A DNA stretch of 64,000 bases from Shigella phage SP21535. The number at the start of each line of letters is the position of its first letter. Within the stretch, counting starts at the first letter, position 1. Shown one piece after another: positions 3,921-63,459 of this stretch. Made by a program: the position numbers and the translations under genes. The stretch lies in the sequence record PQ615101; one strand, given 5' to 3'. The notes beneath the pieces are model-generated. The model searched no databases, was not told where the DNA came from, and saw only the letters and a program-made list of their open reading frames with translations.

Positions 3921-4451
3921 ATGTCACAAGCTCTGCAACAAATTTTTAACCAAGCAAATACAACTAACTTTGTAGTATCAATACCACATAGTAATACTAC
4001 ATCTGCTTTTACTTTAAATGCTCAGTCAGTTCCTATTCCGGGAATTAGGATACCTGTTACTGATACCGTGACTGGGCCGTTTGGACTAGGCCGAGCACAG
4101 CGTCCAGGAGTTACATTTGAGTACGATCCACTCATCGTGAGATTTATAGTTGATGAAGAGCTTAAGTCATGGATAGGAATGTATGAATGGATGCTAGGAA
4201 CTAGTAACTATCTTACAGGCGAAAATACTGCCCAAAAAACAGGTCCTGAATACATTACGCTTTACATTTTAGATAATAGTAAAACTGAAATCGTGATGTC
4301 AATAAATTTTTATAAGCCCTGGGTTTCTGACCTGTCTGAAGTAGAATTTAGCTACACAGAAGATTCAGACCCAGCCTTAGTATGCACAGCAACGATTCCT
4401 TATACGTATTTTCAAGTAGAAAAAGATGGAAAAATTATAGCAGAAGTTTAA
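3921..4451 (+). CDS. 3: tail completion / sheath stabiliser gp3
   Basis: Track ORF 3840..4451; ATG at 3921 behind GAGG gives 176 aa as in T4 gp3. Confidence 0.75.
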   Translation: MSQALQQIFNQANTTNFVVSIPHSNTTSAFTLNAQSVPIPGIRIPVTDTVTGPFGLGRAQRPGVTFEYDPLIVRFIVDEELKSWIGMYEWMLGTSNYLTGENTAQKTGPEYITLYILDNSKTEIVMSINFYKPWVSDLSEVEFSYTEDSDPALVCTATIPYTYFQVEKDGKIIAEV

Positions 4452-4500
4452 TGCTTCAGTTTCATGTGTTATAATCTTAACTAAATTTGAGGAGAAACAT

Positions 4501-5213
4501 ATGAAACTAATCTTTTTAAGTGGTGTAAAGCGTAGTGGAAAAGATACTACTGCAGATTTTATTATGAATAATTATTCTGCAGTTAAATATCAACTTGCTG
4601 GTCCTATTAAGGATGCATTGGCTTATGCATGGGGTGTATTTGCAGCAAACACTGGCTATCCTTGTTTAACTCGTAAAGAGTTTGAAGGAATTGACTATGA
4701 TCGTGAAACTAATTTAAATCTGACTAAATTAGAAGTAATTACGATTATGGAACAAGCATTTTGCTATCTTAATAGTAAAAGCCCAATTAAAGATGTGTTT
4801 GTTTTTGATGACGCAGTTAATTTCGTAGCATTTAACAAGATTGCTGACGTTATAAATAATATTGAAGATCAATGGTCAGTCCGTCGTCTGATGCAAGCCC
4901 TAGGTACGGATTTGATTGTTAATAACTTCGACCGCATGTATTGGGTAAAATTATTTGCTTTAGATTATCTTGATAAATTTAACTCAGGTTATGATTATTA
5001 TATCGTTCCTGATACTCGTCAAGATCATGAAATGGATGCGGCTAGGGCGATGGGTGCTACAGTAATTCATGTAGTTCGTCCTGGTCAAAAATCCAATGAT
5101 ACACATATTACAGAAGCTGGATTGCCAATTCGTGATGGCGATTTAGTAATTACAAACGACGGTTCTCTTGAAGAACTTTTTTCTAAAATTAAAAATACAC
5201 TAAAGGTACTATA

Positions 5214-5911: not shown

Positions 5912-5923
5912 TTTCACAAAGTT

Positions 5924-5954
5924 GTTTACACGTTGATGAGGTAGTGATACTATT
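5924..5954 (+). promoter_or_regulatory. early promoter (GTTTAC -35, TGaTACTAT extended -10) inside inverted repeat
   Basis: GTTTAC then 15 nt then TGATACTAT; flanked by TTGATGAG / CTCATCAA inverted repeat. Confidence 0.6.
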
Positions 5955-5983
5955 ATCTCATCAAAATTAATTAGGAAAATAAA

Positions 5984-6271: not shown

Positions 6272-6290
6272 TAAATAATTTCACAAAGTT

Positions 6291-6321
6291 GTTTACATAG
6301 GGTTTTAGTTGTGATACTATT
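6291..6321 (+). promoter_or_regulatory. early promoter
   Basis: ATTTCACAAAGTTGTTTACA upstream element shared with 5907-5929 and 37305-37329; TGATACTAT -10. Confidence 0.6.
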
Positions 6322-6348
6322 ACCCTATCAACTACTGAGGAGAATAAA

Positions 6349-9009: not shown

Positions 9010-9017
9010 TATAAATA
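9010..9017 (+). promoter_or_regulatory. late promoter TATAAATA
   Basis: Exact TATAAATA 40 nt upstream of ATG 9057. Confidence 0.6.
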
Positions 9018-9056
9018 TAGTAGTATATTAAATCACGAATTAAAACAGGAAATAAG

Positions 9057-9515
9057 ATGAAATCATATGCTCAATTTTTAAATGAAGCATCCGCTTCAGA
9101 TGTTCGCGCTGTAGCAACTGCTGCTATTAAAGCTGGTAAATATTCTTATAAAGATGCTTCTGACGAATCTCGGTACAAGTTCTACGACGATATGAGAGCT
9201 GAAGGCTTTGTGGGTAACTATGTTACCACCGCCTGGAAAAGCCTGGTTGCTACTGGTGCGGCTTTCGAAAAACCTTCTGGTAAACCTGCTCCTAAGGCTG
9301 ACCCTAAAGCAGCACAAGAAAAAAATATTGCTAAAGGAATTATTTCTAGGTATGAAGCAATTCTTAAAGAACTTTTGGTAATTAAGACCGAAGGCCAGAA
9401 ACTTGCGCGAGCTCATAGTTTCAAAGATAACCCACATGCTCATGACCTAGAGTATGTTGAAGATCTCCAAAAAATCATCAAAGACCGCATTTGGTCTGCT
9501 AAACAAATTAAATAA
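9057..9515 (+). CDS. internal-protein-like protein with N-terminal capsid targeting sequence
   Basis: 152 aa; N-terminus MKSYAQFLNEA fits the MKTYQEFIAEA targeting motif of T4 internal proteins; late promoter upstream. Confidence 0.6.
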   Translation: MKSYAQFLNEASASDVRAVATAAIKAGKYSYKDASDESRYKFYDDMRAEGFVGNYVTTAWKSLVATGAAFEKPSGKPAPKADPKAAQEKNIAKGIISRYEAILKELLVIKTEGQKLARAHSFKDNPHAHDLEYVEDLQKIIKDRIWSAKQIK

Positions 9516-9523
9516 CATTCTTA

Positions 9524-9656: not shown

Positions 9657-9695
9657 CTTCCCCGTTCTTCCATGGTACTATACAACTATCAACTA
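9657..9695 (+). promoter_or_regulatory. early promoter module, repeated sequence family
   Basis: CTTCCCCGTTCTTCCATGGTACTATACAACTATCAACT; 35 nt of it is identical at 51384-51418; core TGGTACTATACAACTATC also at 20574, 24012, 25934. Confidence 0.55.
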
Positions 9696-9989: not shown

Positions 9990-10019
9990 GTTTACATAGG
10001 CTCATGATTGAGATATTAT
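9990..10019 (+). promoter_or_regulatory. early promoter with -10 inside a 10-bp inverted repeat
   Basis: GTTTAC .. ATAGGCTCAT gattgaga TATTAT GAGCCTAT. Confidence 0.55.
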
Positions 10020-10044
10020 GAGCCTATAATTTGAGGAAACTGTT

Positions 10045-10575
10045 ATGTCTCTTTATACCGAACTGAATGAAACTTCCGAAAAATCTTTTGATGGTATCTT
10101 ATCAATAATGCAAAAGCAGGTATTAGAACAGCTTAGTGAAGCCGCAAGCAACGGACATAAGGCTTGTCGAATCCCAAGCCCACATCGTCGCCTGTATGAA
10201 CGCCCTCTTATTAATTGGCTAGAAAGCGAAGGTCTTACAGTTAAGATTTGTCCTGCCAAATTTGATGTCCCACGTATTCTTAATATTTACTGGGATAAAC
10301 CGATTGAGAAACCGATTGAGAAAAGTGAACCTTGGGTTGTCAATGTAAAAACATATGATAATGGATGCTCACTTGAGGTGTCTGCTGTAATTAAAGGCAC
10401 TCACGGTGAAAAATCGTGGGGTTGGCCTGGTAAAGATAAAGAAATCGTGTTAAGTGTAAAAGCTACTAGTATTAGTACTCCTATAGCTAAAAGCATTATC
10501 GCCGCCGCTGTTGAAGAAGCTGAACGAATTTGTAAAATTAAAAATAGTTTACATCTCTTAAATAGCATGATATAA
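10045..10575 (+). CDS. hypothetical protein
   Basis: 176 aa; GAGG SD; contains an in-frame 12-bp tandem duplication (KPIEKPIE). Confidence 0.6.
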   Translation: MSLYTELNETSEKSFDGILSIMQKQVLEQLSEAASNGHKACRIPSPHRRLYERPLINWLESEGLTVKICPAKFDVPRILNIYWDKPIEKPIEKSEPWVVNVKTYDNGCSLEVSAVIKGTHGEKSWGWPGKDKEIVLSVKATSISTPIAKSIIAAAVEEAERICKIKNSLHLLNSMI

Positions 10576-10618
10576 TTCTTCCACAGATTTTAATTTTTAA
10601 TCAACCTAAGGAAATACT

Positions 10619-14027: not shown

Positions 14028-14057
14028 GTTTACTTTCTCCTAGAACTGTGATAGTAT
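14028..14057 (+). promoter_or_regulatory. early promoter with -10 inside inverted repeat
   Basis: GTTTAC..AACTGTGA TAGTATAT TCACAGTT. Confidence 0.55.
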
Positions 14058-14100
14058 ATTCACAGTTACTAATTAAAATATTTACATTTAAAGGAAACAT

Positions 14101-16713: not shown

Positions 16714-16743
16714 GTTTACTTTTCCTCTTGACTGTGGTATAAT
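16714..16743 (+). promoter_or_regulatory. early promoter
   Basis: GTTTAC / TTGACT then TGGTATAAT. Confidence 0.6.
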
Positions 16744-16770
16744 TTTTCTATCAGTTAAGAGGAGAATAAC

Positions 16771-20519: not shown

Positions 20520-20542
20520 AGTCTCCTTCGGGAGACTTTTTT
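20520..20542 (+). terminator. rho-independent terminator
   Basis: AGTCTCC-TTCG-GGAGACT followed by TTTTTT. Confidence 0.8.
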
Positions 20543-20552
20543 CATTTTACCG

Positions 20553-20591
20553 GTTTACTTTCCGTTTGAGCTGTGGTACTATACAACTATC
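20553..20591 (+). promoter_or_regulatory. early promoter module (TGGTACTATACAACTATC family)
   Basis: GTTTAC, 15 nt, TGGTACTAT; downstream identical to other family members. Confidence 0.6.
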
Positions 20592-21343: not shown

Positions 21344-21374
21344 GTTTACAAGTTGGCAAGGTTATGGTATAGTA
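21344..21374 (+). promoter_or_regulatory. early promoter
   Basis: GTTTAC, 15 nt, TGGTATAGT; imperfect inverted repeat CAAGGTTA / TAATCTTG around -10. Confidence 0.55.
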
Positions 21375-21505
21375 ATCTTGTCAACTGCCAAGGAGAAGAG
21401 AATGAAAATTTTGTTTGTTGTGTATGTGATGATTCAATATAATTACCCAATGTTTACTTATAATCTAGTGAACAACATTATTGATATTATTCAGAGGAGT
21501 ATGTA

Positions 21506-23992: not shown

Positions 23993-24057
23993 TAGGGAGC
24001 CTTCGGGCTTATGGTACTATACAACTATCAAAACAAACACTTAAACGGAAAAACAAA

Positions 24058-24207
24058 ATGAAAATTACACCAATTGAAGTAAAAAAGTTGATTGATACAG
24101 AAGAAATTTCAGAGTGTTTTGAAAGTTTCTTAGAAGATGCAACTGAAGATAATGCAGTTTATCTCGCTCAGAAAATTATCGAAACTTATTTGGAGAAGAA
24201 TCAATGA
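24058..24207 (+). CDS. small hypothetical protein
   Basis: Track ORF 23989..24207; first ATG after the promoter at 24058; 49 aa. Confidence 0.4.
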   Translation: MKITPIEVKKLIDTEEISECFESFLEDATEDNAVYLAQKIIETYLEKNQ

Positions 24208-24467
24208 CAGTTTACGTAGATGTTTTAATGAATCATGGATGGAAACTTCGCGGTCATCCAACTAAAAATTGTCATATGTTCACTGATGGAGATATTGAAG
24301 AGCTTCACGAAATGGCAGAAGCAATAGGAATGAAACGTTCTTGGTTTCAAGATAAACGCATTAAACATTATGACTTACACGCTCGGCGACGCCAAAAAGC
24401 TGTAGAACTTGGAGCTGTAGAAGTATCTCGTCGCGAAGCAGTAAAAATTTGGCAAACATTAAAATAA
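24204..24467 (+). CDS. hypothetical protein
   Basis: 87 aa ORF. Confidence 0.5.
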   Translation: MTVYVDVLMNHGWKLRGHPTKNCHMFTDGDIEELHEMAEAIGMKRSWFQDKRIKHYDLHARRRQKAVELGAVEVSRREAVKIWQTLK

Positions 24468-24470
24468 ATT

Positions 24471-24501
24471 GTTTACAGCAGGGTAGTAGTGTGATACTAT
24501 T
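24471..24501 (+). promoter_or_regulatory. early promoter with -10 in inverted repeat
   Basis: GTTTAC..AGGGTAGTAG TGTGATAC TATTACCCT. Confidence 0.55.
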
Positions 24502-24536
24502 ACCCTATCAAAACAAATGTAAAATTGGAGAATAAA

Positions 24537-25912: not shown

Positions 25913-25951
25913 GTTTACAAGACTGTTCCTCTGTGGTACTATACAACTATC
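25913..25951 (+). promoter_or_regulatory. early promoter module (TGGTACTATACAACTATC family)
   Basis: GTTTAC, 15 nt, TGGTACTATACAACTATC. Confidence 0.6.
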
Positions 25952-25970
25952 AACTACGGAGGAACAGAAA

Positions 25971-27864: not shown

Positions 27865-28872
27865 ATGAAAACTCGTTCTCAAATTGAAGATATGGTTCGT
27901 AATGCCAGTTATACTCGTGATGTTATGACATTTTTGTGTGAAAATAATTTAGACCCTGATAAAGTTAATCGTGTTATTCATCACTTTAAGTATACGAATA
28001 GCAGTGAATGGGTGCGTAATTTTAGTAAAGCGGGATATATTACACAAATGACTGCTCGTGAGCAGCTCACCGATTTCTGTAAAACTATTGATTATAAAAA
28101 TCCTCTATTTGTTCAAGGCGTTGGTCAAAGTAAGGTCGATTTATCATCTGGATTTTTCAATCCAAATCATTATCGTATTGAATGGAGATTTATTGCTCTG
28201 TTCCGTAGACAATTAAAGCAAATTTTATCAACTGCGAGTCGATTAAAAGGTTCTGATATTAACTTAAAGAATCTGAAATTTGATGGTTATACTCTTCAGA
28301 TGGAAGTAAGACCATTAAAAGAAAATAATAGAACTGCACGAATTAGCTTTAAACCTAATACAAAAAATTCTCTTTCAATTTGCGAATGCCTTAAATCACA
28401 GTTGACAGAAGCATTTAAGTATATGGATGTTGTTGCTGCTGTTCAATCTAAGATTTTACCTCGTTTTGAGCGAAATTGGGAACATACAACAACATATGAA
28501 CTTGATATGATCGTTTCATTTAAATACGATTTTTTGAGAAAGGACGAAGTCCCGCAAGAGAAAAAACCTGAACCCCAAACTAATTACTCATCAAACGATC
28601 CTAAATTTTGGATGTATAGTTCAGGTAATAAAGATGCATGGAAATTCAATAAAGTGAATTTTCTTTCTGTTGAAAATCCGAGTCTTAAACCTGTTGAAAA
28701 ATGGTACGCGGATGCGATTGAGAAGTCCCTTAAGGCAGTAGATGATGAACTCGTTAAAGCGACCAATGAAGTGCTAGAAGCTGAAAAGGCGTTAGAACAA
28801 GCTCAGTCAAGGGTTCAAAATCTGACAAAGCAACGTTCTAAACTGAACAATGCACTAAATGCACTGAACTAG
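27865..28872 (+). CDS. hypothetical protein with C-terminal coiled coil
   Basis: 335 aa; same architecture as 26969 and 28930 ORFs. Confidence 0.55.
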   Translation: MKTRSQIEDMVRNASYTRDVMTFLCENNLDPDKVNRVIHHFKYTNSSEWVRNFSKAGYITQMTAREQLTDFCKTIDYKNPLFVQGVGQSKVDLSSGFFNPNHYRIEWRFIALFRRQLKQILSTASRLKGSDINLKNLKFDGYTLQMEVRPLKENNRTARISFKPNTKNSLSICECLKSQLTEAFKYMDVVAAVQSKILPRFERNWEHTTTYELDMIVSFKYDFLRKDEVPQEKKPEPQTNYSSNDPKFWMYSSGNKDAWKFNKVNFLSVENPSLKPVEKWYADAIEKSLKAVDDELVKATNEVLEAEKALEQAQSRVQNLTKQRSKLNNALNALN

Positions 28873-28929
28873 TTTACTTTGCCACAAGGATGTGGTATAA
28901 TGTTCTTACTTTCTACTGAGGAGATTAAT

Positions 28930-32139: not shown

Positions 32140-32673
32140 CGATTGAAAAAGAAATTGAAGGATTAATTCATAAAACTAATAAAGACCTTTTAAACGAGAA
32201 TGCTAATAAAGATTCTCGTGTTTTTCCAACTCAACGGGACCTTATGGCTGGTATTGTGTCTAAACATATTGCCAAAAATATGGTCCCGTCTTTTATTATG
32301 AAAGCGCATGAAAGCGGAATTATTCACGTGCACGATATTGATTATTCCCCTGCTCTTCCATTTACTAATTGCTGTTTAGTAGATTTAAAAGGAATGCTTG
32401 AGAATGGATTTAAGCTCGGTAATGCACAGATTGAAACTCCTAAATCAATCGGTGTTGCTACTGCAATTATGGCACAAATTACTGCGCAGGTTGCTTCTCA
32501 TCAATATGGCGGAACGACTTTTGCGAATGTAGATAAAGTACTTTCTCCTTATGTTAAACGCACCTACGCAAAACATATTGAGGATGCGGAAAAATGGCAA
32601 ATCGCTGATGCATTGAATTATGCTCAATCTAAAACAGAAAAAGACGTATACGATGCATTCCAGGCGTATGAGT
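32136..32673 (+). CDS. nrdD: anaerobic ribonucleotide reductase NrdD, exon 1
   Basis: ORF 32136..32681; 5-prime splice site placed after U32673 by a 6-bp P1 pairing of exon AUGAGU with GCUCAU in the intron. Confidence 0.75.
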
Positions 32674-33706
32674 TAATTTAATTCAGGCTCATGTAAAACC
32701 GGTCTAAACGGGGAACCTCTCTAGTAGACAATCCCGTGCTAAATGTTCTTTTGAACTAAATGCCTAACGACTAACCGTGATGAATGTAGCGGTGTAGAAT
32801 AGAAGCTAATGCTATTCGAAACGGCCGGCATCGAAAGATGAAGATATAGTCTAATCTGCATGGCGACATGCAGCAGTCATCTTGTATAAATAAGATTATC
32901 TTATGAATACGAGGTGAAACAATGAAATGGATAAAAAGACGTTGTACTAAAATAAAAGATAAAGACGCATTTACATACTTAGTTAAGTTTTCTAATGGCG
33001 ACATTTATATCGGTTATAAAAAATTTAGAACAATTAAAAACAAGCCCACAAACTGGAAAACTTACACAACGTCATCTAAGTATATAAATGAACGCTTAAA
33101 AACTGATACACCTACTAAATGGATAATTTTAAAAACATTTGATAGTTATAAAGATGCATTAAAACATGAAGAAGAGGTCATACGTAAATATTTTTATAGC
33201 AAAAAATGTTTAAATAAATCCATAGGCGGTAAAAAGTTTTATAAGCATCCGGATACTGAAGAACATATTCAAAAATTAAGAGATGCTCATAAGGGTAAAG
33301 TGTTATCCGAATCTCATAAAAACAATATAAAATCTTCTGTAGCTGAATATTATGCTAAAAACGGAAGATCTAAGGAACATGTGCAAAATAATATCAATAG
33401 TCGAAAAAGTAAAAAACAAGTATCGATAAAGCTTAAAAATAAAACTTTTAGAAGTTTTAAAAAAGCAGCGGAATATTTAAATTGCACTGAAAGTGAAGTC
33501 GAAACTCATCCTCTTGTTTTGAGTATTAAGACTACTATTCATAAAGTTCCTGAATATGTGGTTGTTGACGGTATTAAGTATACGTCTTATATAGAAGCAG
33601 CTAAAGCGCTAAATTTTCATCCTAGCACTATAAAAGAACGTTGCATATCTATGGACTATCCAAATTTTGTTGTTTCATATAAACGGGCATGAATTTGCGA
33701 CTCATG
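32674..33706 (+). mobile_element. group I intron in nrdD (T4 nrdD/sunY-type) carrying I-TevII
   Basis: Starts UAAUU like the T4 td intron; core CUAAACGGGGAACCUCUCUAGUAGACAAUCCCGUGCUAAAU; inferred length 1033 nt equals the T4 nrdD intron. Confidence 0.75.
32922..33692 (+). CDS. I-TevII: intron-encoded GIY-YIG homing endonuclease I-TevII
   Basis: 256 aa ORF inside the intron; FTYLVKFSNGDIYIGYKK motif. Confidence 0.8.
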   Translation: MKWIKRRCTKIKDKDAFTYLVKFSNGDIYIGYKKFRTIKNKPTNWKTYTTSSKYINERLKTDTPTKWIILKTFDSYKDALKHEEEVIRKYFYSKKCLNKSIGGKKFYKHPDTEEHIQKLRDAHKGKVLSESHKNNIKSSVAEYYAKNGRSKEHVQNNINSRKSKKQVSIKLKNKTFRSFKKAAEYLNCTESEVETHPLVLSIKTTIHKVPEYVVVDGIKYTSYIEAAKALNFHPSTIKERCISMDYPNFVVSYKRA

Positions 33707-34998
33707 CTGAATATAATGATGAAGTAAATACACTTTTCAGCTCTAATGGACAAACGCCTTTTGTAACAATTACATTTGGTACGGGAACTGACTGGACTGA
33801 ACGAATGATTCAGAAAGCAATTCTGAAAAATCGTATTAAAGGTCTTGGTCGTGATGGGATAACTCCTATTTTCCCTAAGCTTGTTATGTTCGTTGAAGAA
33901 GGTGTTAATCTTTATAAAGACGATCCGAACTATGATATTAAGCAGCTTGCTCTAGAGTGCGCAAGCAAAAGAATGTATCCTGATATTATTTCAGCTAAGA
34001 ACAATAAAGCTATCACTGGTTCATCTGTTCCTGTTTCTCCGATGGGATGCCGTAGTTTCTTGAGCGTATGGAAAGATTCGACTGGCAATGAAATTCTTGA
34101 TGGACGTAATAATCTTGGTGTTGTAACATTGAATCTTCCTCGCATCGCGTTAGATTCTTATATTGGAACACAGTTCAATGAACAGAAATTTGTTGAATTG
34201 TTCAATGAGCGAATGGATTTATGTTTTGAAGCTTTGATGTGTAGAATTAGTTCCTTAAAAGGAGTTAAAGCGACTGTTGCTCCTATTCTTTACCAAGAAG
34301 GTGCATTCGGGGTTCGTCTTAAACCTGATGACGATATAATTGAGTTATTTAAAAACGGCAGAAGTTCAGTGTCTTTGGGATACATTGGTATTCACGAATT
34401 AAATATTCTTGTCGGTCGTGATATTGGACAAGAAATTTTAACTAAAATGAATGCTCATCTTAAACAGTGGACTGAAAGAACCGGATTTGCTTTTAGTTTA
34501 TATTCGACTCCTGCTGAAAACCTTTGTTACCGCTTCTGTAAACTTGATACAGAAAAATATGGAAGTGTAAAAGATGTTACCGATAAAGGCTGGTACACTA
34601 ATAGTTTCCATGTTTCAGTAGAAGAAAATATTACTCCGTTTGAAAAGATTTCTCGTGAAGCGCCATATCATTTCATTGCGACAGGTGGTCACATTTCTTA
34701 TGTTGAACTTCCTGATATGAAAAATAACTTAAAAGGCCTTGAGGCCGTGTGGGATTATGCTGCACAACATTTAGATTATTTTGGTGTTAATATGCCAGTA
34801 GATAAATGTTTTACATGCGGAAGCACCCATGAAATGACTCCTACTGAAAACGGATTTGTTTGTTCTATTTGTGGAGAAACTGATCCTAAAAAGATGAATA
34901 CAATAAGAAGAACATGCGGATATCTTGGAACTCCTAGCGTTGTTCCATGGAATTTAGGTAAAATGAAAGAAATGGTAAAACGAGTAAAACATGCATAG
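33707..34998 (+). CDS. nrdD: anaerobic ribonucleotide reductase NrdD, exon 2
   Basis: 3-prime splice after G33706, exon 2 begins CUGAA (P10 pairing); C-terminal glycyl radical motif RRTCGYLG; combined product about 609 aa. Confidence 0.75.
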
Positions 34999-35821
34999 GT
35001 ATTATATAATTTATAAAATAACAAATATAATTAATTCAAAGGAATATATCGGTGCGCATAGCACCGATAACATAAATGACGGTTATATGGGGTCAGGAAC
35101 ATTGATTCGTGCCGCTTTATTAAAATATGGTAGAAAAAATTTTAATAAAGAAATTTTACATGTTTTTGATAATGAAAAACAAATGTATGATAAAGAAGCT
35201 GAACTTGTAACCGAAGAGTATTGTCTAAAAGAAAATACATATAATATTAAACCTGGTGGAAAAGGTGGAACTGCCTATGAACAGACACTTGAACATCGCC
35301 GCAAAAATAGTTTAGCAAATAAAGGTAAAAAGAGAACAGAAGAAACTAAAATAGCTATTTCACGTGCTTTAAAGAAATATAAACGTACGCCAGAGCATCA
35401 AGCAAATTTAAATAAAGCCGTAAGCATAGCTATGAAGCGAAAAGATGTTAGAAGTAAATTAGCTGGAGAGCGGTCTGAGAAAGATAAATTATCTATATCA
35501 AACGGTGTTAAAAAATATTACAATTCTTTGAGTGAAGAAGAACGCGAACTTCATCGCAAGCGAATTATTGAAGGTAAAAAGAATTCTCCCATGTCATTGG
35601 AATCTAGACAAAAGCTTTCAAAAGCTTTAAAAGGACTTCAAGTTGGTTCAAAAAATCCAATGTATGGAAAAATTTCTCCAACTAGCAAAACCGTTTCAGT
35701 TGACGGTATTAAATATGATTCAATTAAAAAGTGCTCAAATGCCATAAAAGTTTCTAGACATCTTATACTAAAACGCTGTAATTCTACTGATGAAGCTTGG
35801 AAAAATTGGATATTATTATGA
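34991..35821 (+). CDS. free-standing GIY-YIG homing endonuclease, SegB paralogue
   Basis: 276 aa; N-terminus YKITNIINSKEYIGAHSTDNINDGYMGSG closely parallels segB; NUMOD-like repeats; sits between nrdD and nrdG. Confidence 0.75.
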   Translation: MHRYYIIYKITNIINSKEYIGAHSTDNINDGYMGSGTLIRAALLKYGRKNFNKEILHVFDNEKQMYDKEAELVTEEYCLKENTYNIKPGGKGGTAYEQTLEHRRKNSLANKGKKRTEETKIAISRALKKYKRTPEHQANLNKAVSIAMKRKDVRSKLAGERSEKDKLSISNGVKKYYNSLSEEERELHRKRIIEGKKNSPMSLESRQKLSKALKGLQVGSKNPMYGKISPTSKTVSVDGIKYDSIKKCSNAIKVSRHLILKRCNSTDEAWKNWILL

Positions 35822-37250: not shown

Positions 37251-37323
37251 TCTCACATTCTGTATATTACCATTCTAACTATCATTCACTTCTTATCATT
37301 CCCTAAAATAATTTCACAAAGTT

Positions 37324-37353
37324 GTTTACAACAAGTTCAAACTGTGGTATTAT
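37324..37353 (+). promoter_or_regulatory. early promoter
   Basis: ATTTCACAAAGTTGTTTACA element then TGGTATTAT. Confidence 0.6.
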
Positions 37354-51292: not shown

Positions 51293-51383
51293 CATACAAG
51301 TAATATAAATCTATACTTAGGAAAAATAGATGATTCTGGACCTCTGGAATTCATTAAAAATTTTTTCACAAAACTGTTTACAT

Positions 51384-51418
51384 CCCCGTTCTTCCATGGT
51401 ACTATACAACTATCAACT
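51384..51418 (+). promoter_or_regulatory. early promoter module, 35-nt exact repeat of 9661-9695
   Basis: CCCCGTTCTTCCATGGTACTATACAACTATCAACT identical to the 9661-9695 copy; GTTTAC 15 nt upstream of TGG. Confidence 0.6.
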
Positions 51419-52232: not shown

Positions 52233-52973
52233 ATGATTAATAACTCTATGACAGTTGAAGAAATCCGTCTTTATTTGGGAATTGCATTAAAGGAAAAAGA
52301 TTTCGTAATTGATAAAACCGGTGTTAAAACTATTGAAATTATTGGTGCATCATTTGTAGCAGATGAACCTTTTATTTTTGGCGCTCTTAATGATGAATAC
52401 ATTCAGCGTGAACTTGAATGGTATAAGTCTCAAAGTTTGTTTGTTAAAGATATTCCAGGTGAAACGCCAAAGATTTGGCAACAGGTAGCATCTTCTAAAG
52501 GCGAAATTAACTCGAATTATGGTTGGGCCATCTGGTCAGAAGATAACTATGCTCAGTATGACATGTGTTTAGCTGAACTTGGTCAAAATCCTGATTCTCG
52601 ACGTGGTATCATGATTTATACTCGTCCATCTATGCAGTTTGACTACAATAAAGATGGTATGTCAGATTTCATGTGTACGAATACAGTACAGTACCTGATT
52701 CGTGATAAGAAAGTCAATGCAGTGGTTAACATGAGAAGTAATGATTGCTGGGCAGGCTATCGTAATGATTATGCATGGCAAAAATATGTACTAGATAAAT
52801 TAGTATCTGATTTGAATGCAGGTGATTCAACTCGTCAGTATAAAGCAGGTTCCATTATATGGAATGTCGGGAGCCTTCATGTGTATTCCCGTCATTTTTA
52901 TTTGGTTGACCATTGGTGGAAAACTGGCGAAACTCATATTGCGAAAAAAGATTATAACGGTGAGTGGAAATGA
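52233..52973 (+). CDS. 42: dCMP hydroxymethylase gp42
   Basis: 246 aa as T4 gp42; thymidylate-synthase-like fold. Confidence 0.85.
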   Translation: MINNSMTVEEIRLYLGIALKEKDFVIDKTGVKTIEIIGASFVADEPFIFGALNDEYIQRELEWYKSQSLFVKDIPGETPKIWQQVASSKGEINSNYGWAIWSEDNYAQYDMCLAELGQNPDSRRGIMIYTRPSMQFDYNKDGMSDFMCTNTVQYLIRDKKVNAVVNMRSNDCWAGYRNDYAWQKYVLDKLVSDLNAGDSTRQYKAGSIIWNVGSLHVYSRHFYLVDHWWKTGETHIAKKDYNGEWK

Positions 52974-53812
52974 TTCAATTCGTAATTCCAAGCTATCAAC
53001 GCGTAGGGGCAGTTTCTGCCCTTGATATGTTTCCGACTGATTATGAACCTCATATTGTAGTACGTGAACATGAAGAAAAAGCTTATTATGACGCTTACGG
53101 GTCTAGAGCTAAAATTATAACTATTCCTGATGATGTTAATGGAATTGCTGGTACTCGTAAAGCAATTACTGATATGTATGCAGGTCAACGAATTTGGATG
53201 ATTGATGATGATACTACTATTCGTATGAGTTCAATACGAAAGAGAGACGATAAACGGCGTGTAGATAAAGTCAATCAATTGACTCGTGAGCAATTCTATG
53301 AATTAATTCAATACGTTGAGGATGCAATGGATTGCGGGTATTATCATGGTCATGCTCGTTTACCAATTTTTAAAATTACTTCATCTTGGGGTAATTATCG
53401 TGAAAATTCATATGGATTCACGAATACATGGTATGATTTAGGAAAACTTACAACAGAACAAATTGGGTATGGAAAAATTGATTTATGTGAAGATATGTAT
53501 GCATTTCTCAATTTAATTAATCAAGGTTATCCGCATTTGGCCTTGTTCAAATATCTAGTTGTATCTGGAAAAGCACAAGCTCCTGGCGGATGTAGTTCAA
53601 TTCGTAGTAATTCAAAACATAATAGAGCTCTTGAGCAAATCAATAGAGAGTTTCCAGAGCAAGCTCGTTGGAAAACATCGAATATTGAAAAACGAAAATC
53701 GTTGGGTGAAGAAGATGAACCGCTAAAGGTTCTTCGCATGTGTGTTTCGCGTAAAGAAAAATCAGAAGCATTTCATAAGTTTAATGCTATTCATCCAATA
53801 GCAGTTGATTAA
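52970..53812 (+). CDS. glycosyltransferase (DxD type), not T4 beta-gt
   Basis: Track ORF 52964..53812; ATG 52970 overlaps gene 42 stop; IWMIDDD motif; unlike the 351-aa T4 beta-gt that occupies this locus. Confidence 0.6.
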   Translation: MIQFVIPSYQRVGAVSALDMFPTDYEPHIVVREHEEKAYYDAYGSRAKIITIPDDVNGIAGTRKAITDMYAGQRIWMIDDDTTIRMSSIRKRDDKRRVDKVNQLTREQFYELIQYVEDAMDCGYYHGHARLPIFKITSSWGNYRENSYGFTNTWYDLGKLTTEQIGYGKIDLCEDMYAFLNLINQGYPHLALFKYLVVSGKAQAPGGCSSIRSNSKHNRALEQINREFPEQARWKTSNIEKRKSLGEEDEPLKVLRMCVSRKEKSEAFHKFNAIHPIAVD

Positions 53813-53889: not shown

Positions 53890-54819
53890 ATGTCTATTGC
53901 AGATTTAAAATCCCGTTTGATTAAAGCTTCCACTTCTAAAATGACTGCTGAACTGACTACATCTAAATTCTTTAATGAAAAGGATGTAATCCGTACAAAA
54001 ATCCCAATGCTTAATATCGCTATTTCTGGCGCGATTGATGGCGGCATGCAGTCTGGTTTAACTATTTTCGCAGGGCCTTCTAAACACTTTAAATCAAATA
54101 TGTCTTTGACTATGGTTGCGGCATATTTAAACAAATATCATGACGCAGTTTGTCTATTCTATGATAGCGAATTTGGTATTACTCCAGCTTATTTGCGATC
54201 CATGGGAGTTGACCCGGAACGAGTAATTCATACGCCAATTCAGTCAGTTGAACAGCTGAAAATTGATATGGTGAACCAGCTTGAAGCTATTGAGCGTGGT
54301 GAAAAGGTTATTGTATTCATCGACTCAATCGGTAATATGGCTTCTAAGAAAGAAACGGAAGATGCCTTGAATGAAAAATCTGTGGCAGATATGACTCGTG
54401 CTAAATCACTGAAGTCATTATTCCGTATTGTTACTCCTTATTTTAGCATTAAAAATATTCCATGTGTTGCGGTTAACCATACAATTGAAACAATTGAACT
54501 GTTTAGTAAAACCGTGATGACAGGTGGTTGTGTTATTGCTGGTACTAAAATCCAGATGTCCGATGGTTCTACTAAAGCAGTTGAAGATATTCGTCCAGGT
54601 GAGCGTGTTAAAACCATGGTCGGTGATAATGAAGTAACTTATGTTTGGGACCCCGAAACTCTGGCTGAAGGTACTCCTGAATGTTTCGAAATTGAATTCG
54701 AAGACGGTTATAAAGTAACTACTTCAGATACTCACAAGTTCCTGGTAATGGTTAAAGACATTCCAACTTGGGTTGAAGCTAAAGATTTAGTAGCTGGAAT
54801 GGATTGTGTTGTAAGGTAA
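53890..54819 (+). CDS. uvsX: UvsX recombinase N-terminal fragment (residues 1-213) fused in frame to a putative intein N-half
   Basis: First 213 aa match T4 UvsX up to ..FSKTVMTGG (Walker A GPSKHFKS); then 96 aa starting with Cys; ends TAA TAA. Confidence 0.85.
   Translation: MSIADLKSRLIKASTSKMTAELTTSKFFNEKDVIRTKIPMLNIAISGAIDGGMQSGLTIFAGPSKHFKSNMSLTMVAAYLNKYHDAVCLFYDSEFGITPAYLRSMGVDPERVIHTPIQSVEQLKIDMVNQLEAIERGEKVIVFIDSIGNMASKKETEDALNEKSVADMTRAKSLKSLFRIVTPYFSIKNIPCVAVNHTIETIELFSKTVMTGGCVIAGTKIQMSDGSTKAVEDIRPGERVKTMVGDNEVTYVWDPETLAEGTPECFEIEFEDGYKVTTSDTHKFLVMVKDIPTWVEAKDLVAGMDCVVR
54529..54816 (+). other. putative split-intein N-terminal half (Int-N, 96 aa)
   Basis: Begins CVIAGTKIQMSDGS (block A Cys1), contains TTSDTHKF (block B TxxH); absent from T4 uvsX. 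Confidence 0.65.
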
Positions 54820-54822
54820 TAA

Positions 54823-54864
54823 ATATGGGTACCGGACTAATGTATATTTTTGAGGTACCCATAT
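54823..54864 (+). promoter_or_regulatory. hairpin sequestering the endonuclease RBS and start codon
   Basis: Perfect 11-bp inverted repeat ATATGGGTACC (54823-54833) / GGTACCCATAT (54854-54864), 20-nt loop; 3-prime arm covers GAGG SD and A,T of ATG 54863. Confidence 0.6.
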
Positions 54865-55585
54865 GAATTTTGTCTATAAAATTGTGTTCAACGATAGAAT
54901 TAAAAACGGCACTCCGCCATATTACTACATAGGGAGCAAGACAAATGCTTCTTATGTAGATGGTAAGATTATTGACGCCCACGGTCGTGAGTACTATGGC
55001 TCATCGAGATATCCCGGATATCATGATTTTATCAATAATGTTACTGTTGAAATATTGGAGCAATATGATGATATTAAACACACTAAACTGCTAGAGCGCG
55101 AAAATTTCTATCAGAAACAAGTAAATGTTAAAACAAATCCAGATTATTTTAATTTAGATTATGCTTGTGGGCATAATTCATATGCTAATGCTGATTTTGC
55201 ATCATACAAGCATTATATAACAGGTAAATGTATTCGTCTTGAAAGAAACCATCCGCTTGTTAAATCTGGTGTGTATGTTGGCGTCACAAAAGGCGTGAAA
55301 TCTTCTGATGAACACCGCAAGCACATATCAGAAGGTATTACCGGAGAAAACAATGGGTTCTATGGTAAGAAACACACTAAAGAAACAATTAATAAAATAT
55401 CAGAAAAAGCAAAGAAAAGATTAAAGCATTCCCATCCTAGACAAAAAGGTGTTATCATAAACGGTATTGAATACCGGGGCGTCAGACCTGCTGCAAGAGC
55501 GTTGGGAATTAATCCTAACACAATTATCAACAAAATTAAAGCTAATATAAAAGGATGGGCTTATGCAGTAGATGCACGCGGTTAA
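54863..55585 (+). CDS. free-standing GIY-YIG homing endonuclease between the two uvsX fragments
   Basis: 240 aa; VYKIVF..YYIGSK GIY-YIG-type N-terminus, NUMOD-like linker repeats, C-terminal helix-turn-helix-like region. Confidence 0.75.
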   Translation: MNFVYKIVFNDRIKNGTPPYYYIGSKTNASYVDGKIIDAHGREYYGSSRYPGYHDFINNVTVEILEQYDDIKHTKLLERENFYQKQVNVKTNPDYFNLDYACGHNSYANADFASYKHYITGKCIRLERNHPLVKSGVYVGVTKGVKSSDEHRKHISEGITGENNGFYGKKHTKETINKISEKAKKRLKHSHPRQKGVIINGIEYRGVRPAARALGINPNTIINKIKANIKGWAYAVDARG

Positions 55586-55693
55586 GGCATTCGAAGATAT
55601 GGTAAAAGAATTTGGAATGAACATGACAATCAAGATTATGCTTTCATGAAATATGTATATTGAAACTAGCTACTACGAAACACAAGGTAAAGT

Positions 55694-56687: not shown

Positions 56688-58115
56688 GTGGTAGAAATTA
56701 TTCTTTCTCATCTCATATTTGATCAAGCTTATTTTTCAAAAGTTTGGCCATATATGGATTCAGAATATTTTGAAAGTGGTCCAGCTAAAAATACATTCAA
56801 ATTAATTAAATCTCATGTCAATGAGTATCATAGCGTTCCATCTATTAATGCGTTAAATGTTGCATTAGAAAATAGTTCATTTACTGAAACAGAATATTCT
56901 GGTGTAAAAACACTTATTTCAAAACTGGCTGATTCTCCGGAAGACCACAGCTGGTTAGTAAAAGAAACAGAAAAATATGTTCAGCAAAGGGCGATGTTTA
57001 ATGCTACGTCTAAAATAATCGAAATTCAAACTAATGCTGAGCTTTCTCCGGAAAAACGAAATAAGAAAATGCCGGATGTTGGTGCTATTCCTGACATCAT
57101 GCGCCAAGCATTATCAATTTCATTTGATAGCTACGTTGGTCATGATTGGATGGATGACTACGAAGCACGTTGGCTATCTTATATGAATAAAGCTCGTAAG
57201 GTTCCATTTAAACTCAAAATTCTAAATAAAATTACTAAAGGCGGAGCTGAGACTGGAACACTGAACGTTTTAATGGCTGGTGTTAACGTTGGTAAGTCAT
57301 TAGGTCTATGTTCATTGGCAGCAGATTATTTGCAGCTCGGACATAATGTTCTTTACATTTCCATGGAAATGGCTGAAGAAGTTTGTGCTAAACGTATTGA
57401 CGCTAATATGCTTGATGTTTCTCTTGATGACATTGATGATGGGCATATTTCTTACGCTGAATATAAAGGAAAAATGGAAAAATGGCGTGAGAAATCTACT
57501 CTTGGTCGTTTAATCGTTAAACAGTATCCTACTGGTGGAGCAGATGCTAACACATTCAGGTCTCTCTTGAATGAATTGAAGCTCAAGAAGAATTTTGTTC
57601 CAACAATCATTATTGTCGACTATCTAGGTATTTGTAAATCTTGCCGCATTAGAATTTATTCAGAAAATAGTTACACAACTGTTAAAGCTATTGCAGAAGA
57701 ATTGCGTGCTCTGGCTGTTGAAACCGAAACTGTTCTTTGGACTGCAGCACAGGTTGGTAAACAAGCTTGGGATTCTTCTGATGTTAACATGAGTGATATT
57801 GCAGAATCCGCCGGTCTTCCAGCAACAGCCGATTTTATGCTTGCGGTCATTGAAACTGAGGAGTTAGCAGCTGCTGAACAACAACTCATTAAGCAAATCA
57901 AATCACGATATGGTGATAAGAATAAATGGAATAAGTTTTTGATGGGTGTTCAAAAAGGAAATCAAAAATGGGTAGAAATTGAGCAAGATTCTACTCCAAC
58001 TGAAGTGAACGAAGTAACAGGTTCACAACAGATACAAGCTGAGCAGAATCGCTATCAAAGAAATGAATCTACTCGAGCCCAGTTAGATGCTTTAGCAAAT
58101 GAATTAAAATTTTAG
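56688..58115 (+). CDS. 41: replicative DNA helicase gp41
   Basis: 475 aa as T4 gp41; GTG start behind AGGAG; Walker A GVNVGKS. Confidence 0.9.
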   Translation: MVEIILSHLIFDQAYFSKVWPYMDSEYFESGPAKNTFKLIKSHVNEYHSVPSINALNVALENSSFTETEYSGVKTLISKLADSPEDHSWLVKETEKYVQQRAMFNATSKIIEIQTNAELSPEKRNKKMPDVGAIPDIMRQALSISFDSYVGHDWMDDYEARWLSYMNKARKVPFKLKILNKITKGGAETGTLNVLMAGVNVGKSLGLCSLAADYLQLGHNVLYISMEMAEEVCAKRIDANMLDVSLDDIDDGHISYAEYKGKMEKWREKSTLGRLIVKQYPTGGADANTFRSLLNELKLKKNFVPTIIIVDYLGICKSCRIRIYSENSYTTVKAIAEELRALAVETETVLWTAAQVGKQAWDSSDVNMSDIAESAGLPATADFMLAVIETEELAAAEQQLIKQIKSRYGDKNKWNKFLMGVQKGNQKWVEIEQDSTPTEVNEVTGSQQIQAEQNRYQRNESTRAQLDALANELKF

Positions 58116-58144
58116 TTTACAAGCTGACAAGACTATGGTATAGT
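58115..58144 (+). promoter_or_regulatory. early promoter with -10 inside hairpin
   Basis: GTTTAC..CAAGACTA TGGTATAG TAGTCTTG, 8-bp perfect inverted repeat. Confidence 0.55.
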
Positions 58145-58172
58145 AGTCTTGTTGGTTAAATGAGGAGATGTT

Positions 58173-58614: not shown

Positions 58615-58636
58615 CTGTTTACTTTTATTGGAAATT
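58607..58636 (+). promoter_or_regulatory. early promoter
   Basis: GTTTAC, 15 nt, AGATACTAT. Confidence 0.5.
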
Positions 58637-58675
58637 GAGATACTATATAAACATAAACTACTGAGGAGATTAATC

Positions 58676-60768: not shown

Positions 60769-60798
60769 GTTTACTTTCTCAGCTTGTTATGGTATTAT
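60769..60798 (+). promoter_or_regulatory. early promoter with flanking inverted repeat
   Basis: GTTTAC..CTCAGC..TGGTATTAT..GCTGAG upstream of ATG 60824. Confidence 0.55.
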
Positions 60799-60823
60799 AA
60801 AATAAATTGCTGAGGATGATATA

Positions 60824-62163
<1,340 letters not shown>

Positions 62164-63388: not shown

Positions 63389-63395
63389 TAATTCA

Positions 63396-63421
63396 AGGAC
63401 TCCTTCGGGAGTCCTTTTTTC
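63396..63421 (+). terminator. rho-independent terminator
   Basis: AGGACTCC-TTCG-GGAGTCCT followed by TTTTTTC. Confidence 0.8.
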
Positions 63422-63429
63422 ATTTTATG

Positions 63430-63459
63430 GTTTACTTTCCAAAATGAGTATGGTATAAT
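63430..63459 (+). promoter_or_regulatory. early promoter
   Basis: GTTTAC, spacer, TGGTATAAT. Confidence 0.6.

What the first reader, a model, noticed from the sequence alone, without database searches (positions are those of the whole stretch)
9657..9695. Family of repeated early-promoter modules, several with the -10 element inside a hairpin
At least 17 sites share GTTTAC, a 15-nt spacer, then TGnTAnnAT. Five share the longer core TGGTACTATACAACTATC (9673, 20574, 24012, 25934, 51397) and two are identical over 35 nt (9661-9695 and 51384-51418). In others the -10 sits between perfect inverted repeats whose sequence differs from copy to copy while pairing is kept (5934/5956, 9997/10020, 14044/14060, 24482/24500, 58126/58145, 60775/60811). 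That pattern argues for selection on structure. It resembles the promoter-early stem-loop elements proposed to mediate module shuffling in T4-type phages, and here they flank most of the non-T4 cargo.
Basis: partly seen in the sequence, partly recalled or inferred. Interest (0 to 1): 0.55.

Follow-up and report, generated by a model that had tools for sequence, protein, structure and literature searches.

The report
T4 early promoters with built-in hairpins
These repeats are the strong early promoters of a T4-like phage, many wrapped in a hairpin that can form only in RNA read through from upstream; this is the already published "PeSL" promoter/stem-loop cassette, so it is real but largely known.

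Summary
The window is a Tequatrovirus (T4-like) genome. GTTTAC-N15-TGnTAnnAT occurs 13 times exactly (0.03 expected) and about 20 times by PWM, always on the early-gene strand. The five 18-nt cores, a 36-nt identical pair and all six hairpins are present. The flagged site (9657-9695) is a decayed copy: a ~31-nt deletion, rare among relatives, removed its UP element and -35.

The hairpins are not chance. Spacers pair with their own downstream sequence far better than with another promoter's (0/5000 permutations), and this holds for 128 promoters from ~50 related phages. Orthologous promoters carry different stems, with compensatory changes. G·U exceeds A·C (23:4; 14:4 after de-duplication). The hairpins are mutually exclusive with canonical upstream terminators (p=4e-4). 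Together this points to a sense-strand RNA structure that forms only in read-through transcripts, because the 5' arm lies upstream of the module's own start site. A subclass masks the Shine-Dalgarno or AUG.

The cassette-shuffling idea is partly supported. The e.7 slot and the 24.0-24.5 kb insertion are bounded by modules, but only 4-5 of 15 non-T4 segments are.

These are T4 early promoters/PeSLs (Arbiol 2010; Comeau 2014), so novelty is low.

The parts
9659..9694 (+). The flagged site: a decayed e.8 early promoter. It keeps the extended -10 (TGGTACTAT, 9673-9681) and the +1 region but has lost the UP element and -35. It is 36 nt identical to 51383-51418.
   Evidence: T4 and all IMG/VR relatives have ...TTTTTCACAAAACTGTTTACATCC... 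here; nearly all of 512 phage records span about 122 nt instead of 91.
4446..4508 (+). Early promoter upstream of gene 1 (-35 GTTTAA). 13-bp hairpin 4458-4470/4496-4508 whose 3' arm covers the AUG at 4501 (class II).
   Evidence: z = -4.1
5924..5964 (+). Early promoter (ipI-type gene at 5984). 14-bp hairpin 5933-5946/5951-5964 with the -10 in the loop and inner stem (class I).
   Evidence: z = -3.7
6291..6328 (+). Early promoter (trna.4 homologue at 6349). 7-bp stem ATAGGGT/ACCCTAT around the -10.
   Evidence: z = -1.3, weak
9990..10027 (+). Early promoter at the left edge of the e.7 cassette slot. 13-bp hairpin 9996-10008/10015-10027.
   Evidence: z = -4.8. Compensatory changes in orthologues.
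10547..10576 (+). Early promoter of e.6, at the right edge of the e.7 slot. No hairpin.
14028..14067 (+). Early promoter of the internal-protein locus. 8-bp hairpin 14044-14051/14060-14067.
16714..16766 (+). regB early promoter. 15-bp hairpin 16720-16734/16752-16766 whose 3' arm covers the GGAG Shine-Dalgarno (class II).
   Evidence: [quoted passage not shown]
20520..20591 (+). UUCG-tetraloop intrinsic terminator with T-run (about 20520-20543), followed by an early promoter (-35 at 20553) carrying the 18-nt core. No spanning hairpin.
21344..21386 (+). Early promoter (mobD.2 region). 15-bp hairpin 21351-21365/21372-21386.
   Evidence: z = -3.9
23995..24033 (+). Decayed nrdC.10-type promoter. 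The terminator stem is fused directly to TATGGTACTATACAACTATCAA after a 52-nt deletion at a GCT microhomology. It forms the left edge of the 24.0-24.5 kb cargo insertion.
24471..24506 (+). Early promoter of nrdC.10, at the right edge of the cargo insertion. 11-bp hairpin 24480-24490/24496-24506.
   Evidence: z = -2.9
25913..25967 (+). Early promoter of nrdC.8 with the 18-nt core. 15-bp hairpin 25923-25937/25953-25967 whose 3' arm covers the Shine-Dalgarno (class II).
   Evidence: z = -6.9
28872..28901 (+). Early promoter (nrdC.4 promoter, now driving an nrdC.4/nrdC.3 fusion). No significant spanning hairpin.
37324..37353 (+). Early promoter sharing the upstream block AATAATTTCACAAAGTTGTTTAC with 5924 and 6291. 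No hairpin.
51376..51418 (+). Early promoter of imm.1 with the 18-nt core. It is the intact partner of the 36-nt identity. No significant hairpin.
58115..58157 (+). Early promoter. 15-bp hairpin 58122-58136/58143-58157 (9-bp Watson-Crick core).
   Evidence: z = -3.2
58617..58646 (+). Early promoter (AGATACTAT -10). No hairpin.
60769..60816 (+). Early promoter at the left edge of a 537-bp non-T4 insertion. 8-bp hairpin 60776-60783/60809-60816 whose 3' arm covers the Shine-Dalgarno.
   Evidence: z = -1.9
63395..63459 (+). UUCG-tetraloop terminator with T-run (63395-63423), followed by an early promoter (-35 at 63430). No spanning hairpin.

Best explanation
These are the sigma-70-dependent early promoters of a T4-like phage, of the composite UP / GTTTAC -35 / TGn / -10 type. 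Each sits in the short gap between two early genes and is followed about 55-60 nt later by a GGAG-type ribosome-binding site and the start codon. This is the unit published as a PeSL (promoter-early stem-loop). In about half of them, the 15-nt spacer between -35 and -10 is complementary either to the 6-12 nt just after the -10 (class I, with the dyad axis inside the -10 hexamer) or to the Shine-Dalgarno/AUG of the next gene (class II). Transcription from the module's own promoter should start about 7 nt after the -10, so its own RNA lacks the 5' arm and cannot form the hairpin. Only RNA arriving from an upstream promoter can form it. The hairpin therefore most likely insulates each early gene from read-through transcripts. 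Class II masks the ribosome-binding site, and with it the RegB GGAG site, so the gene is translated only from its own transcripts, as is known for T4 late promoters at e, soc, 49 and I-TevI. Class I caps or attenuates the upstream transcript, standing in for a canonical terminator. Secondarily, the 60-100 bp modules are repeated around the genome and act as patches of homology where gene cassettes are gained, lost or swapped. Shown here: the motif, its strand bias, hairpin enrichment, covariation, the G·U bias, exclusivity with terminators, and cassette boundaries. Inferred: the transcription start position, that the RNA structure forms in vivo, and what it does.
For: Identity: the window is 93-98% identical to Tequatrovirus genomes. 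The motif occurs 13 times against 0.03 expected, all on the early-gene strand; PWM hits are 176 on + and 1 on - across 52 related loci. 18 of 20 sites are intergenic, with the ATG at +55 to +72. regB's promoter is described as a typical early promoter, and T4 early promoters are described as UP/-35/TGn/-10 with extra conserved positions.

Hairpins beyond chance: 0/5000 permutations in the window. Across 128 distinct promoters, a Watson-Crick helix of at least 8 bp occurs in 34% against 3.6% of chimeras. z-scores reach -6.9.

Selection on structure: the orthologous nrdC.10 promoter has four unrelated stems. The e.7 promoter has two compensatory double changes plus G·U intermediates, with 95.6% of cells paired against 27-44% when partner columns are slid.

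Sense-strand (RNA) structure: interior G·U 23 against A·C 4, with a null near 48% (p=1.3e-4); 14 against 4 after collapsing to 47 stem clusters (p=0.016).

Action on read-through RNA: the 5' arm occupies positions +6 to +22 from the -35, upstream of any start site. Spanning hairpins are rare when a canonical terminator precedes the -35, 5/27 against 57/100 (p=4e-4).

RBS masking: 3' arms cover the SD or AUG at 4446, 16714, 25913 and 60769, and in many related phages.

Recombination: the e.7 slot has at least 5 cargo states, always with one more promoter than cargo ORFs. The 24.0-24.5 kb insertion runs from about +1 of one module to the SD of the next. L025 and L035 keep an orphan 3' arm beside a foreign 5' half.
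Against: No experimental 5' or 3' ends are available for this phage, and I found no T4 genome-wide TSS/TTS map in the paper library. Class I hairpins have no U-run after the stem, so they are not canonical intrinsic terminators, and their precise effect (attenuation, 3'-end protection or processing) is not resolved. About half of the promoters have no hairpin. The G·U and exclusivity statistics use promoters that are partly related by descent; de-duplication weakens the G·U result to p=0.016. Covariation at the e.7 promoter rests on 7 sequences (35/500 shuffles reach the observed score). Breakpoint enrichment at modules is only about 2-fold.
Confidence: 0.72

Rival explanations
1. The inverted repeats are selected at the DNA level. 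Cruciforms or single-strand hairpins at the promoter would serve as recombination or mobility sites for cassette shuffling (the mini-circle model), with no RNA role.
For: Some cargo boundaries lie in modules. The natural chimeras L025 and L035 have a crossover between the two arms. The PeSL paper mapped one RB49 mini-circle junction inside the loop.
Against: A duplex cruciform needs pairing on both strands, yet G·T (tolerated only on the sense strand) outnumbers A·C 23:4, or 14:4 after de-duplication. A recombination role gives no reason for the anticorrelation with upstream terminators or for 3' arms targeting the SD/AUG. Only about a quarter of junction breakpoints are at modules. The nrdC.4 deletion and the 9657 and 24012 decays use microhomology or coding homology, not stem sequences.
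Confidence: 0.13
2. Class I hairpins are ordinary transcription terminators for the upstream gene, which is the PeSL authors' own reading.
For: One RB49 PeSL stem-loop reduced downstream lacZ as strongly as rrnB T1. The hairpins are mutually exclusive with canonical terminators, as expected for functional equivalents.
Against: No U-run follows the stems: the flanks are A-rich, such as ...ATCAAA or AATTTGAGG. The stems are AT-rich, unlike the G/C tracts of RB49. Class II stems are clearly placed on ribosome-binding sites rather than at gene ends.
Confidence: 0.1
3. The hairpins are a by-product of promoter consensus self-complementarity (T21/A28, TAGT...ACTA) or of chance in AT-rich DNA.
For: The conserved positions T21·A28 and N20·T29 pair in about 90% of promoters regardless of context. 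This seeds the helix and explains the preferred register.
Against: Chimeras keep the same consensus yet lose the helices. The paired bases lie in the non-conserved spacer and discriminator. Compensatory changes occur in orthologues.
Confidence: 0.03

Closest known systems
PeSL (promoter-early stem-loop) cassettes of T4-type phages (Arbiol et al. 2010, PMC2839356; Comeau et al. 2014, PMC4122927)
   Same: AT-rich upstream region, a sigma-70 promoter, a stem-loop whose position can overlap the -10, then the SD and ATG. Intergenic, repeated, and enriched next to indels. The PST/T4 consensus TTTACW..N17..TAYWAT and stem AGNA-loop-TCNT match the column consensus found here. Decayed '1/2 PeSLs' are also described there and seen here at 9659 and 24012.
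   Different: The RB49/phi1 stems are G-tract/C-tract and were tested as terminators. Here the stems are AT-rich, lack U-runs, share a dyad inside the -10 (class I) or target the SD/AUG (class II), and anticorrelate with true terminators. The papers did not analyse strand asymmetry or note that the 5' arm is untranscribed from the module's own promoter. Modules account for a minority of the cargo boundaries here.
Bacteriophage T4 early promoters (Pe), reviewed by Hinton 2010 (PMC2988021)
   Same: Composite UP / -35 / TGn / -10 architecture, extra conserved positions, orientation with the early genes, and positional orthology to T4 (e.8, e.7, e.6, regB, nrdC.10, nrdC.8, imm.1 and others).
   Different: None in kind. 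Two copies here have decayed by deletion, and some drive non-T4 cargo.
Promoter-inside-hairpin translational control at T4 genes e, soc, 49 and I-TevI (PMC3014915)
   Same: The promoter lies within or after the 5' arm, so long upstream transcripts fold and hide the SD/AUG while promoter-proximal transcripts are open. Class II hairpins here have exactly this geometry.
   Different: The known cases use late (gp55) promoters to delay expression. Here the embedded promoters are early sigma-70 promoters, and the effect would be insulation between neighbouring early genes rather than timing. This is untested.
Morons of lambdoid phages
   Same: A single gene carried with its own promoter, and sometimes a terminator, inserted between resident genes.
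   Different: Morons are not bounded by a conserved repeated regulatory module, and their flanks are not thought to mediate the exchange (discussed in PMC2839356).

Membership tests
T4-type early promoter (Pe) | Sigma-70 -35 (GTTTAC), about 15 nt to TGn, an extended -10 TAnnAT, and an A/T-rich UP region | tested here: met
   13 exact and about 20 PWM sites; consensus ..aaaaaaTtT..GTTTACat...TGTGgTAttAT. The flagged copy 9659-9694 and copy 24012 lack the -35 and UP region.
T4-type early promoter (Pe) | Same orientation as the early genes and located upstream of an early gene | tested here: met
   All on the + strand, 0 on the - strand. 18 of 20 are intergenic with the ATG at +55 to +72. Positional orthology to T4 early regions.
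T4-type early promoter (Pe) | Transcription starts immediately after infection without phage protein synthesis | not testable with these tools
   Needs 5'-end mapping with chloramphenicol. Only the regB promoter's status is taken from the literature.
PeSL cassette | An early promoter combined with a sequence able to form a stable stem-loop within the same intergenic module | tested here: met
   Met by 8 strong and 3 moderate sites of 18 folded and by 34-48% of 128 promoters in relatives. About half of the promoters lack it.
PeSL cassette | [quoted passage not shown] | tested here: met
   The -35 begins 0-40 nt after the upstream stop in most cases, followed by the SD and ATG.
PeSL cassette | Preferentially adjacent to insertions, deletions or replacements between close relatives | tested here: inconclusive
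   Enriched but not dominant. 11 of 60 breakpoint edges fall in modules that cover 4.4% of bases. 13 of 46 junction edges are at promoter-bearing junctions, which make up 18 of 119 junctions. Clear cases are the e.7 slot and the 24.0-24.5 kb insertion.
PeSL cassette | The stem-loop terminates or attenuates upstream transcription | not testable with these tools
   Indirect evidence only: anticorrelation with canonical terminators, but no U-run.
PeSL cassette | Recombination between neighbouring PeSLs yields mini-circles | not testable with these tools
   Needs inverse PCR on phage DNA.
Promoter-in-hairpin RBS sequestration (e / soc / 49 / I-TevI type) | 5' arm upstream of the embedded promoter's start site; 3' arm covers the SD and/or AUG | tested here: met
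   Met at 4446 (AUG), 16714, 25913 and 60769 (SD), and in many related phages. Not met by class I hairpins, whose 3' arm ends near +1 to +5.
Promoter-in-hairpin RBS sequestration (e / soc / 49 / I-TevI type) | Long transcripts are translationally silent while promoter-proximal transcripts are translated | not testable with these tools
   Needs reporter fusions or ribosome profiling.
Intrinsic (Rho-independent) terminator | GC-rich stem immediately followed by a U-run | tested here: not met
   The -10-spanning hairpins have A-rich 3' flanks. True terminators (UUCG tetraloop plus T-run) exist separately upstream of 20553 and 63430.

The most novel reading that the evidence does not exclude
The -10-spanning hairpins may form a genome-wide 'own-promoter-only' rule for T-even early genes. 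Each early gene would carry a structure that silences, caps or processes any transcript entering from the neighbouring gene, with the anti-SD or anti-discriminator arm hidden in the untranscribed promoter spacer. Each cassette would then be transcriptionally and translationally autonomous and therefore portable. This would extend the e/soc/49/I-TevI late-promoter paradigm to dozens of early promoters. It could also bear on the still unexplained rapid decline of early gene expression.
Probability: 0.35. Interest if true: 0.5.

Novelty: already known. Interest (0 to 1): 0.24.

Why it matters
The elements themselves are textbook T4 early promoters and published PeSLs, so finding them in another Tequatrovirus is expected. 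The modest added value lies in four results: the stems behave as a sense-strand RNA structure (G·U far exceeds A·C); they can exist only in read-through RNA; they substitute for canonical terminators; and one subclass hides the ribosome-binding site. If these were confirmed experimentally, they would explain how densely packed early genes, each with a very strong promoter, stay independently regulated. They would also explain why promoter-bounded cassettes can move between phages without disturbing their neighbours, which is useful for phage engineering and for annotating the many small genes of unknown function in T4-like genomes.

Tried and rejected
1. The T4 RefSeq record carries no promoter features, so orthology to mapped promoters could not be read from annotation.
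2. The T4 genome review by Miller et al. 2003 is not held, and no genome-wide T4 TSS/terminator map was found. No functional follow-up of PeSLs after 2014 was found.
3. Orthologous promoters use different stem registers (sums 44 and 49 in the nrdC.10 set) and two hairpin classes, so no single consensus structure exists. I used a PWM with chimera and register tests instead.
4. The nrdC.4 deletion first looked promoter-mediated, but the junction is an 8-nt match (ACTCGTAA) in paralogous coding sequence.
5. The canonical-terminator reading of class I hairpins was rejected for lack of a U-run.
6. Recent gene conversion between 9659-9694 and 51383-51418 was considered. The e.8 orthologues differ from the imm.1 copy by only one base in this stretch, so the 36-nt identity needs no special event.
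7. PWM sites 13919 and 42756 lie inside genes and are not counted as confident promoters.

Full report
**What the window is.** Region 9000-12000 matches 662 phage records, almost all Tequatrovirus, with Escherichia phage LH2 best at 98%. blastn against T4 (NC_000866) shows collinearity with T4 78.0 to 14.7 kb in reverse orientation, so the window's + strand is the strand of the T4 early genes. The finding therefore lies in the e.8/e.7 region of a T4-like genome.

**Check of the observation.**
- GTTTAC-N15-TGNTANNAT occurs 13 times, all on the + strand, against 0.03 expected. One mismatch adds six more sites.
- A PWM built from these gives 20 sites above 18 bits on the + strand and none above 8 bits on the - strand.
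- The 18-mer TGGTACTATACAACTATC occurs exactly five times, at the stated positions.
- The identical pair is 36 nt, 9659-9694 = 51383-51418.
- All six quoted inverted repeats are present, and four more exist at 4446, 16714, 21344 and 25913.
- 18 of 20 sites are intergenic. The -35 usually begins 0-40 nt after the upstream stop codon, and the next ATG lies 55-72 nt after the -35.

**The flagged site is a damaged copy.** T4 and every close IMG/VR relative read ...CCCTAAAACTTTTTAAAAATTTTTTCACAAAACTGTTTACATCC(C/T)TGTTCTTCCATGGTACTAT upstream of e.8. The window reads ...CCCTAAAACTTCCCCGTTCTTCCATGGTACTAT. About 31 nt covering the UP element and the -35 are missing. Among 512 phage records, nearly all match the 91-nt query in two pieces spanning about 122 nt, so the deletion is rare. 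A second copy, at 24012, lost its terminator T-run, UP element, -35 and spacer through a 52-nt deletion between GCT microhomologies. These correspond to the "1/2 PeSLs" described by Comeau et al..

**Are the hairpins more than chance?**
- I searched each promoter for the best helix with its 5' arm in the spacer and its 3' arm downstream of the -10. I compared this with chimeras that join promoter i's spacer to promoter j's downstream sequence. This control keeps the conserved boxes and the base composition.
- In the window the native mean score is 8.9 against 6.2 for chimeras. 8 of 20 native sites score at least 9, against 4% of chimeras, and 0 of 5000 permutations reach the observed mean.
- RNAfold gives z-scores of -6.9 (25913), -4.8 (9990), -4.7 (16714), -4.1 (4446), -3.9 (21344), -3.7 (5924), -3.2 (58115) and -2.9 (24471). 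There is no signal at 51376, 10547, 20553, 63430, 37324 or 58617.
- In 52 loci fetched from IMG/VR the PWM finds 176 sites on the + strand and 1 on the - strand. Among 128 distinct promoters, 34% have a perfect helix of at least 8 bp, against 3.6% of chimeras.

**Selection on structure.**
- The promoter upstream of nrdC.10 carries unrelated stems in different phages: GGGTA/TACCC, ATAGGAC/GTCCTAT, TGGAGCT/AGCTCCA and GGTATGAG/CTCATACC. These use two different registers, so the hairpin is re-created rather than simply inherited.
- The e.7 promoter keeps one register. There, U-A changes to C-G in L005, A-U changes to G-C in L013, L017, L009 and L015, and G·U intermediates occur.
- In that set 95.6% of cells pair, against 27-44% when partner columns are slid. 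Two pairs show changes on both sides. With only seven sequences the shuffle control is modest (35/500).

**Geometry.**
- With the -35 G as position 0, 5' arms cover positions 6-22. 3' arms fall into two groups, 28-41 and 43-70.
- Class I helices share one register (i + j = 49). 29 of 128 promoters have a run of at least 6 pairs there, against 0-9 in any other register. This puts the dyad axis inside the -10 hexamer.
- The column consensus AGga...tCCT is the "AGNA-loop-TCNT" stem reported for PST/T4.
- In class II the spacer carries an anti-SD or anti-AUG sequence, for example TTTCTCCTCT/AGAGGAGAAA. In the window this class includes 4446 (AUG of gene 1), 16714 (regB SD), 25913 (nrdC.8 SD) and 60769.
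- Sigma-70 promoters start transcription about 7 nt after the -10 (established knowledge). The 5' arm is therefore never present in the module's own transcript, and the hairpin can exist only in RNA coming from upstream.

**RNA or DNA?**
- A duplex cruciform needs complementarity on both strands, whereas a sense-strand RNA tolerates G·U but not A·C. Interior mismatches flanked by Watson-Crick pairs are G·U 23 against A·C 4 in native helices, with chimeras near 48:52 (p=1.3e-4).
- After collapsing related promoters to 47 stem clusters, the count is 14 against 4 (p=0.016).
- Spanning hairpins are rare when a canonical terminator (GC stem, often a UUCG loop, plus a T-run) sits just upstream of the -35: 5 of 27 against 57 of 100, Fisher p=4e-4. 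In the window, 20553 and 63430 have such terminators and no hairpin.
- Both results fit a structure that acts on read-through RNA and is unnecessary where a real terminator already stops that RNA.
- Class I stems are not followed by a U-run, so they are not canonical terminators. Attenuation, 3'-end protection and processing remain open possibilities.
- The downstream SD often reads GGAGAATAAAATG, which matches the RegB consensus GG*AGRAYARAA. Secondary structure is known to protect such sites from cleavage.

**Cassette shuffling.**
- Against T4 there are 19 alignment gaps.
- Modules bound the e.7 replacement (10047-10602) on both sides.
- They also bound the 24009-24525 insertion on both sides. 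That insertion runs from just after ...ACTATCAA of a decayed module to the GGAG of nrdC.10, so it is 5'UTR + two ORFs + the downstream promoter.
- Modules lie at the left edge of the IP locus and at the left edge of the 60760 insertion.
- The e.7 slot has at least five states in relatives: empty; e.7; e.7 plus a 54-aa ORF; a 176-aa ORF (with a further 75-aa ORF in L009); and a 132-aa ORF. In every state there is one more promoter than there are cargo ORFs.
- L025 and L035 keep the 3' arm of the nrdC.10 hairpin next to an unrelated 5' half. These are natural chimeras with a crossover between the two arms, which is where the PeSL paper mapped one RB49 mini-circle junction.
- The association is partial. 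Of 60 unique breakpoint edges against nine close genomes, 11 lie in modules, which cover 4.4% of bases. Of 46 edges at gene junctions, 13 are at promoter-bearing junctions, which make up 18 of 119 junctions.
- Most other differences are homing-endonuclease gains or losses (mobB, mobC, mobD, segA, segF), promoter-less insertions at gene boundaries, or events in coding homology such as the nrdC.4 deletion at ACTCGTAA.
- Overall, only 4-5 of about 15 non-T4 segments touch a module, so "most of the cargo" is not correct.

**Comparison with what is known.**
- T4 early promoters are described as composite UP/-35/TGn/-10 promoters with additional conserved positions.
- PeSLs were defined in RB49/phi1. 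That paper describes five subclasses by stem position, including overlap with the -10. It marks G-T pairs in the stems, shows terminator activity for one stem, and detects mini-circles.
- The concept was then extended explicitly to PST/T4.
- The promoter-inside-hairpin logic that hides a ribosome-binding site in long transcripts is established for the late promoters of e, soc, 49 and I-TevI.
- The finding is therefore a correct recognition of a known element class. New here, and still only computational, are five points: the sense-strand bias; the anticorrelation with terminators; the fixed class I dyad in the -10; the size of the SD/AUG-masking class at early promoters; and the diagnosis of the flagged copy as decayed.

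Noticed in passing
window 53890-56341: uvsX (the RecA-like recombinase) is a fractured gene. ORF 53890-54819 has a RecA domain followed by a Hint/intein N-terminal part. ORF 54863-55585 is a free-standing NUMOD3 endonuclease-like protein. ORF 55694-56341 begins with an intein C-terminal splicing motif followed by the UvsX C-terminal domain. This looks like a split intein with an inserted homing endonuclease, as in Dassa et al. 2009 (PMC2677866). Only about 8 of 508 matching phage records carry it (BYEP01, SYGD1, HY03, ELT1, pSe_SNUABM_01, RPN226), and none annotates it as a split intein.
   Followed up: partly
window 9012-9521: A 510-bp insertion relative to T4, just downstream of the rnaC-equivalent region, carrying a 152-aa ORF (9057-9515) with no Pfam hit. 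The two flanking T4 alignments overlap by about 34 nt in T4 (70825-70859), which suggests a short direct duplication at the insertion borders.
   Followed up: partly
window 52964-53812: The beta-glucosyltransferase and segA of T4 are replaced by a 282-aa protein of the TET-associated glycosyltransferase (TAGT) family, which implies a different DNA hypermodification sugar chemistry from T4.
   Followed up: partly
window 60824-61384: A non-T4 186-aa ORF, driven by promoter 60769 and lying immediately upstream of dam, has weak similarity to the DpnII and BanI restriction endonucleases (E about 0.005, below the Pfam cutoffs).
   Followed up: no
window 32638-32873: A group I intron in nrdD (Rfam 70.6 bits) that is only about 236 nt, so apparently without the I-TevII ORF present in T4.
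   Followed up: no
window 34973-35810: T4 mobC (HNH) is replaced by a gene with 68% nucleotide similarity to segB (GIY-YIG), an exchange of one homing-endonuclease type for another at the same locus.
   Followed up: no
window 5912-5929, 6279-6296, 37312-37329 and 51364-51381: The upstream half of the promoter is also repeated. AATAATTTCACAAAGTTGTTTAC occurs three times, with a variant at 51376, and combines independently with different -10/+1 halves. The modules are therefore mosaics of at least two repeated blocks.
   Followed up: partly
L001 (T4 NC_000866, about 70.3 kb): The T4 reference record has an ambiguous base (N) inside the 5' arm of the e.7 promoter hairpin (TTTACATAGGCTNATGATTG).
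   Followed up: no
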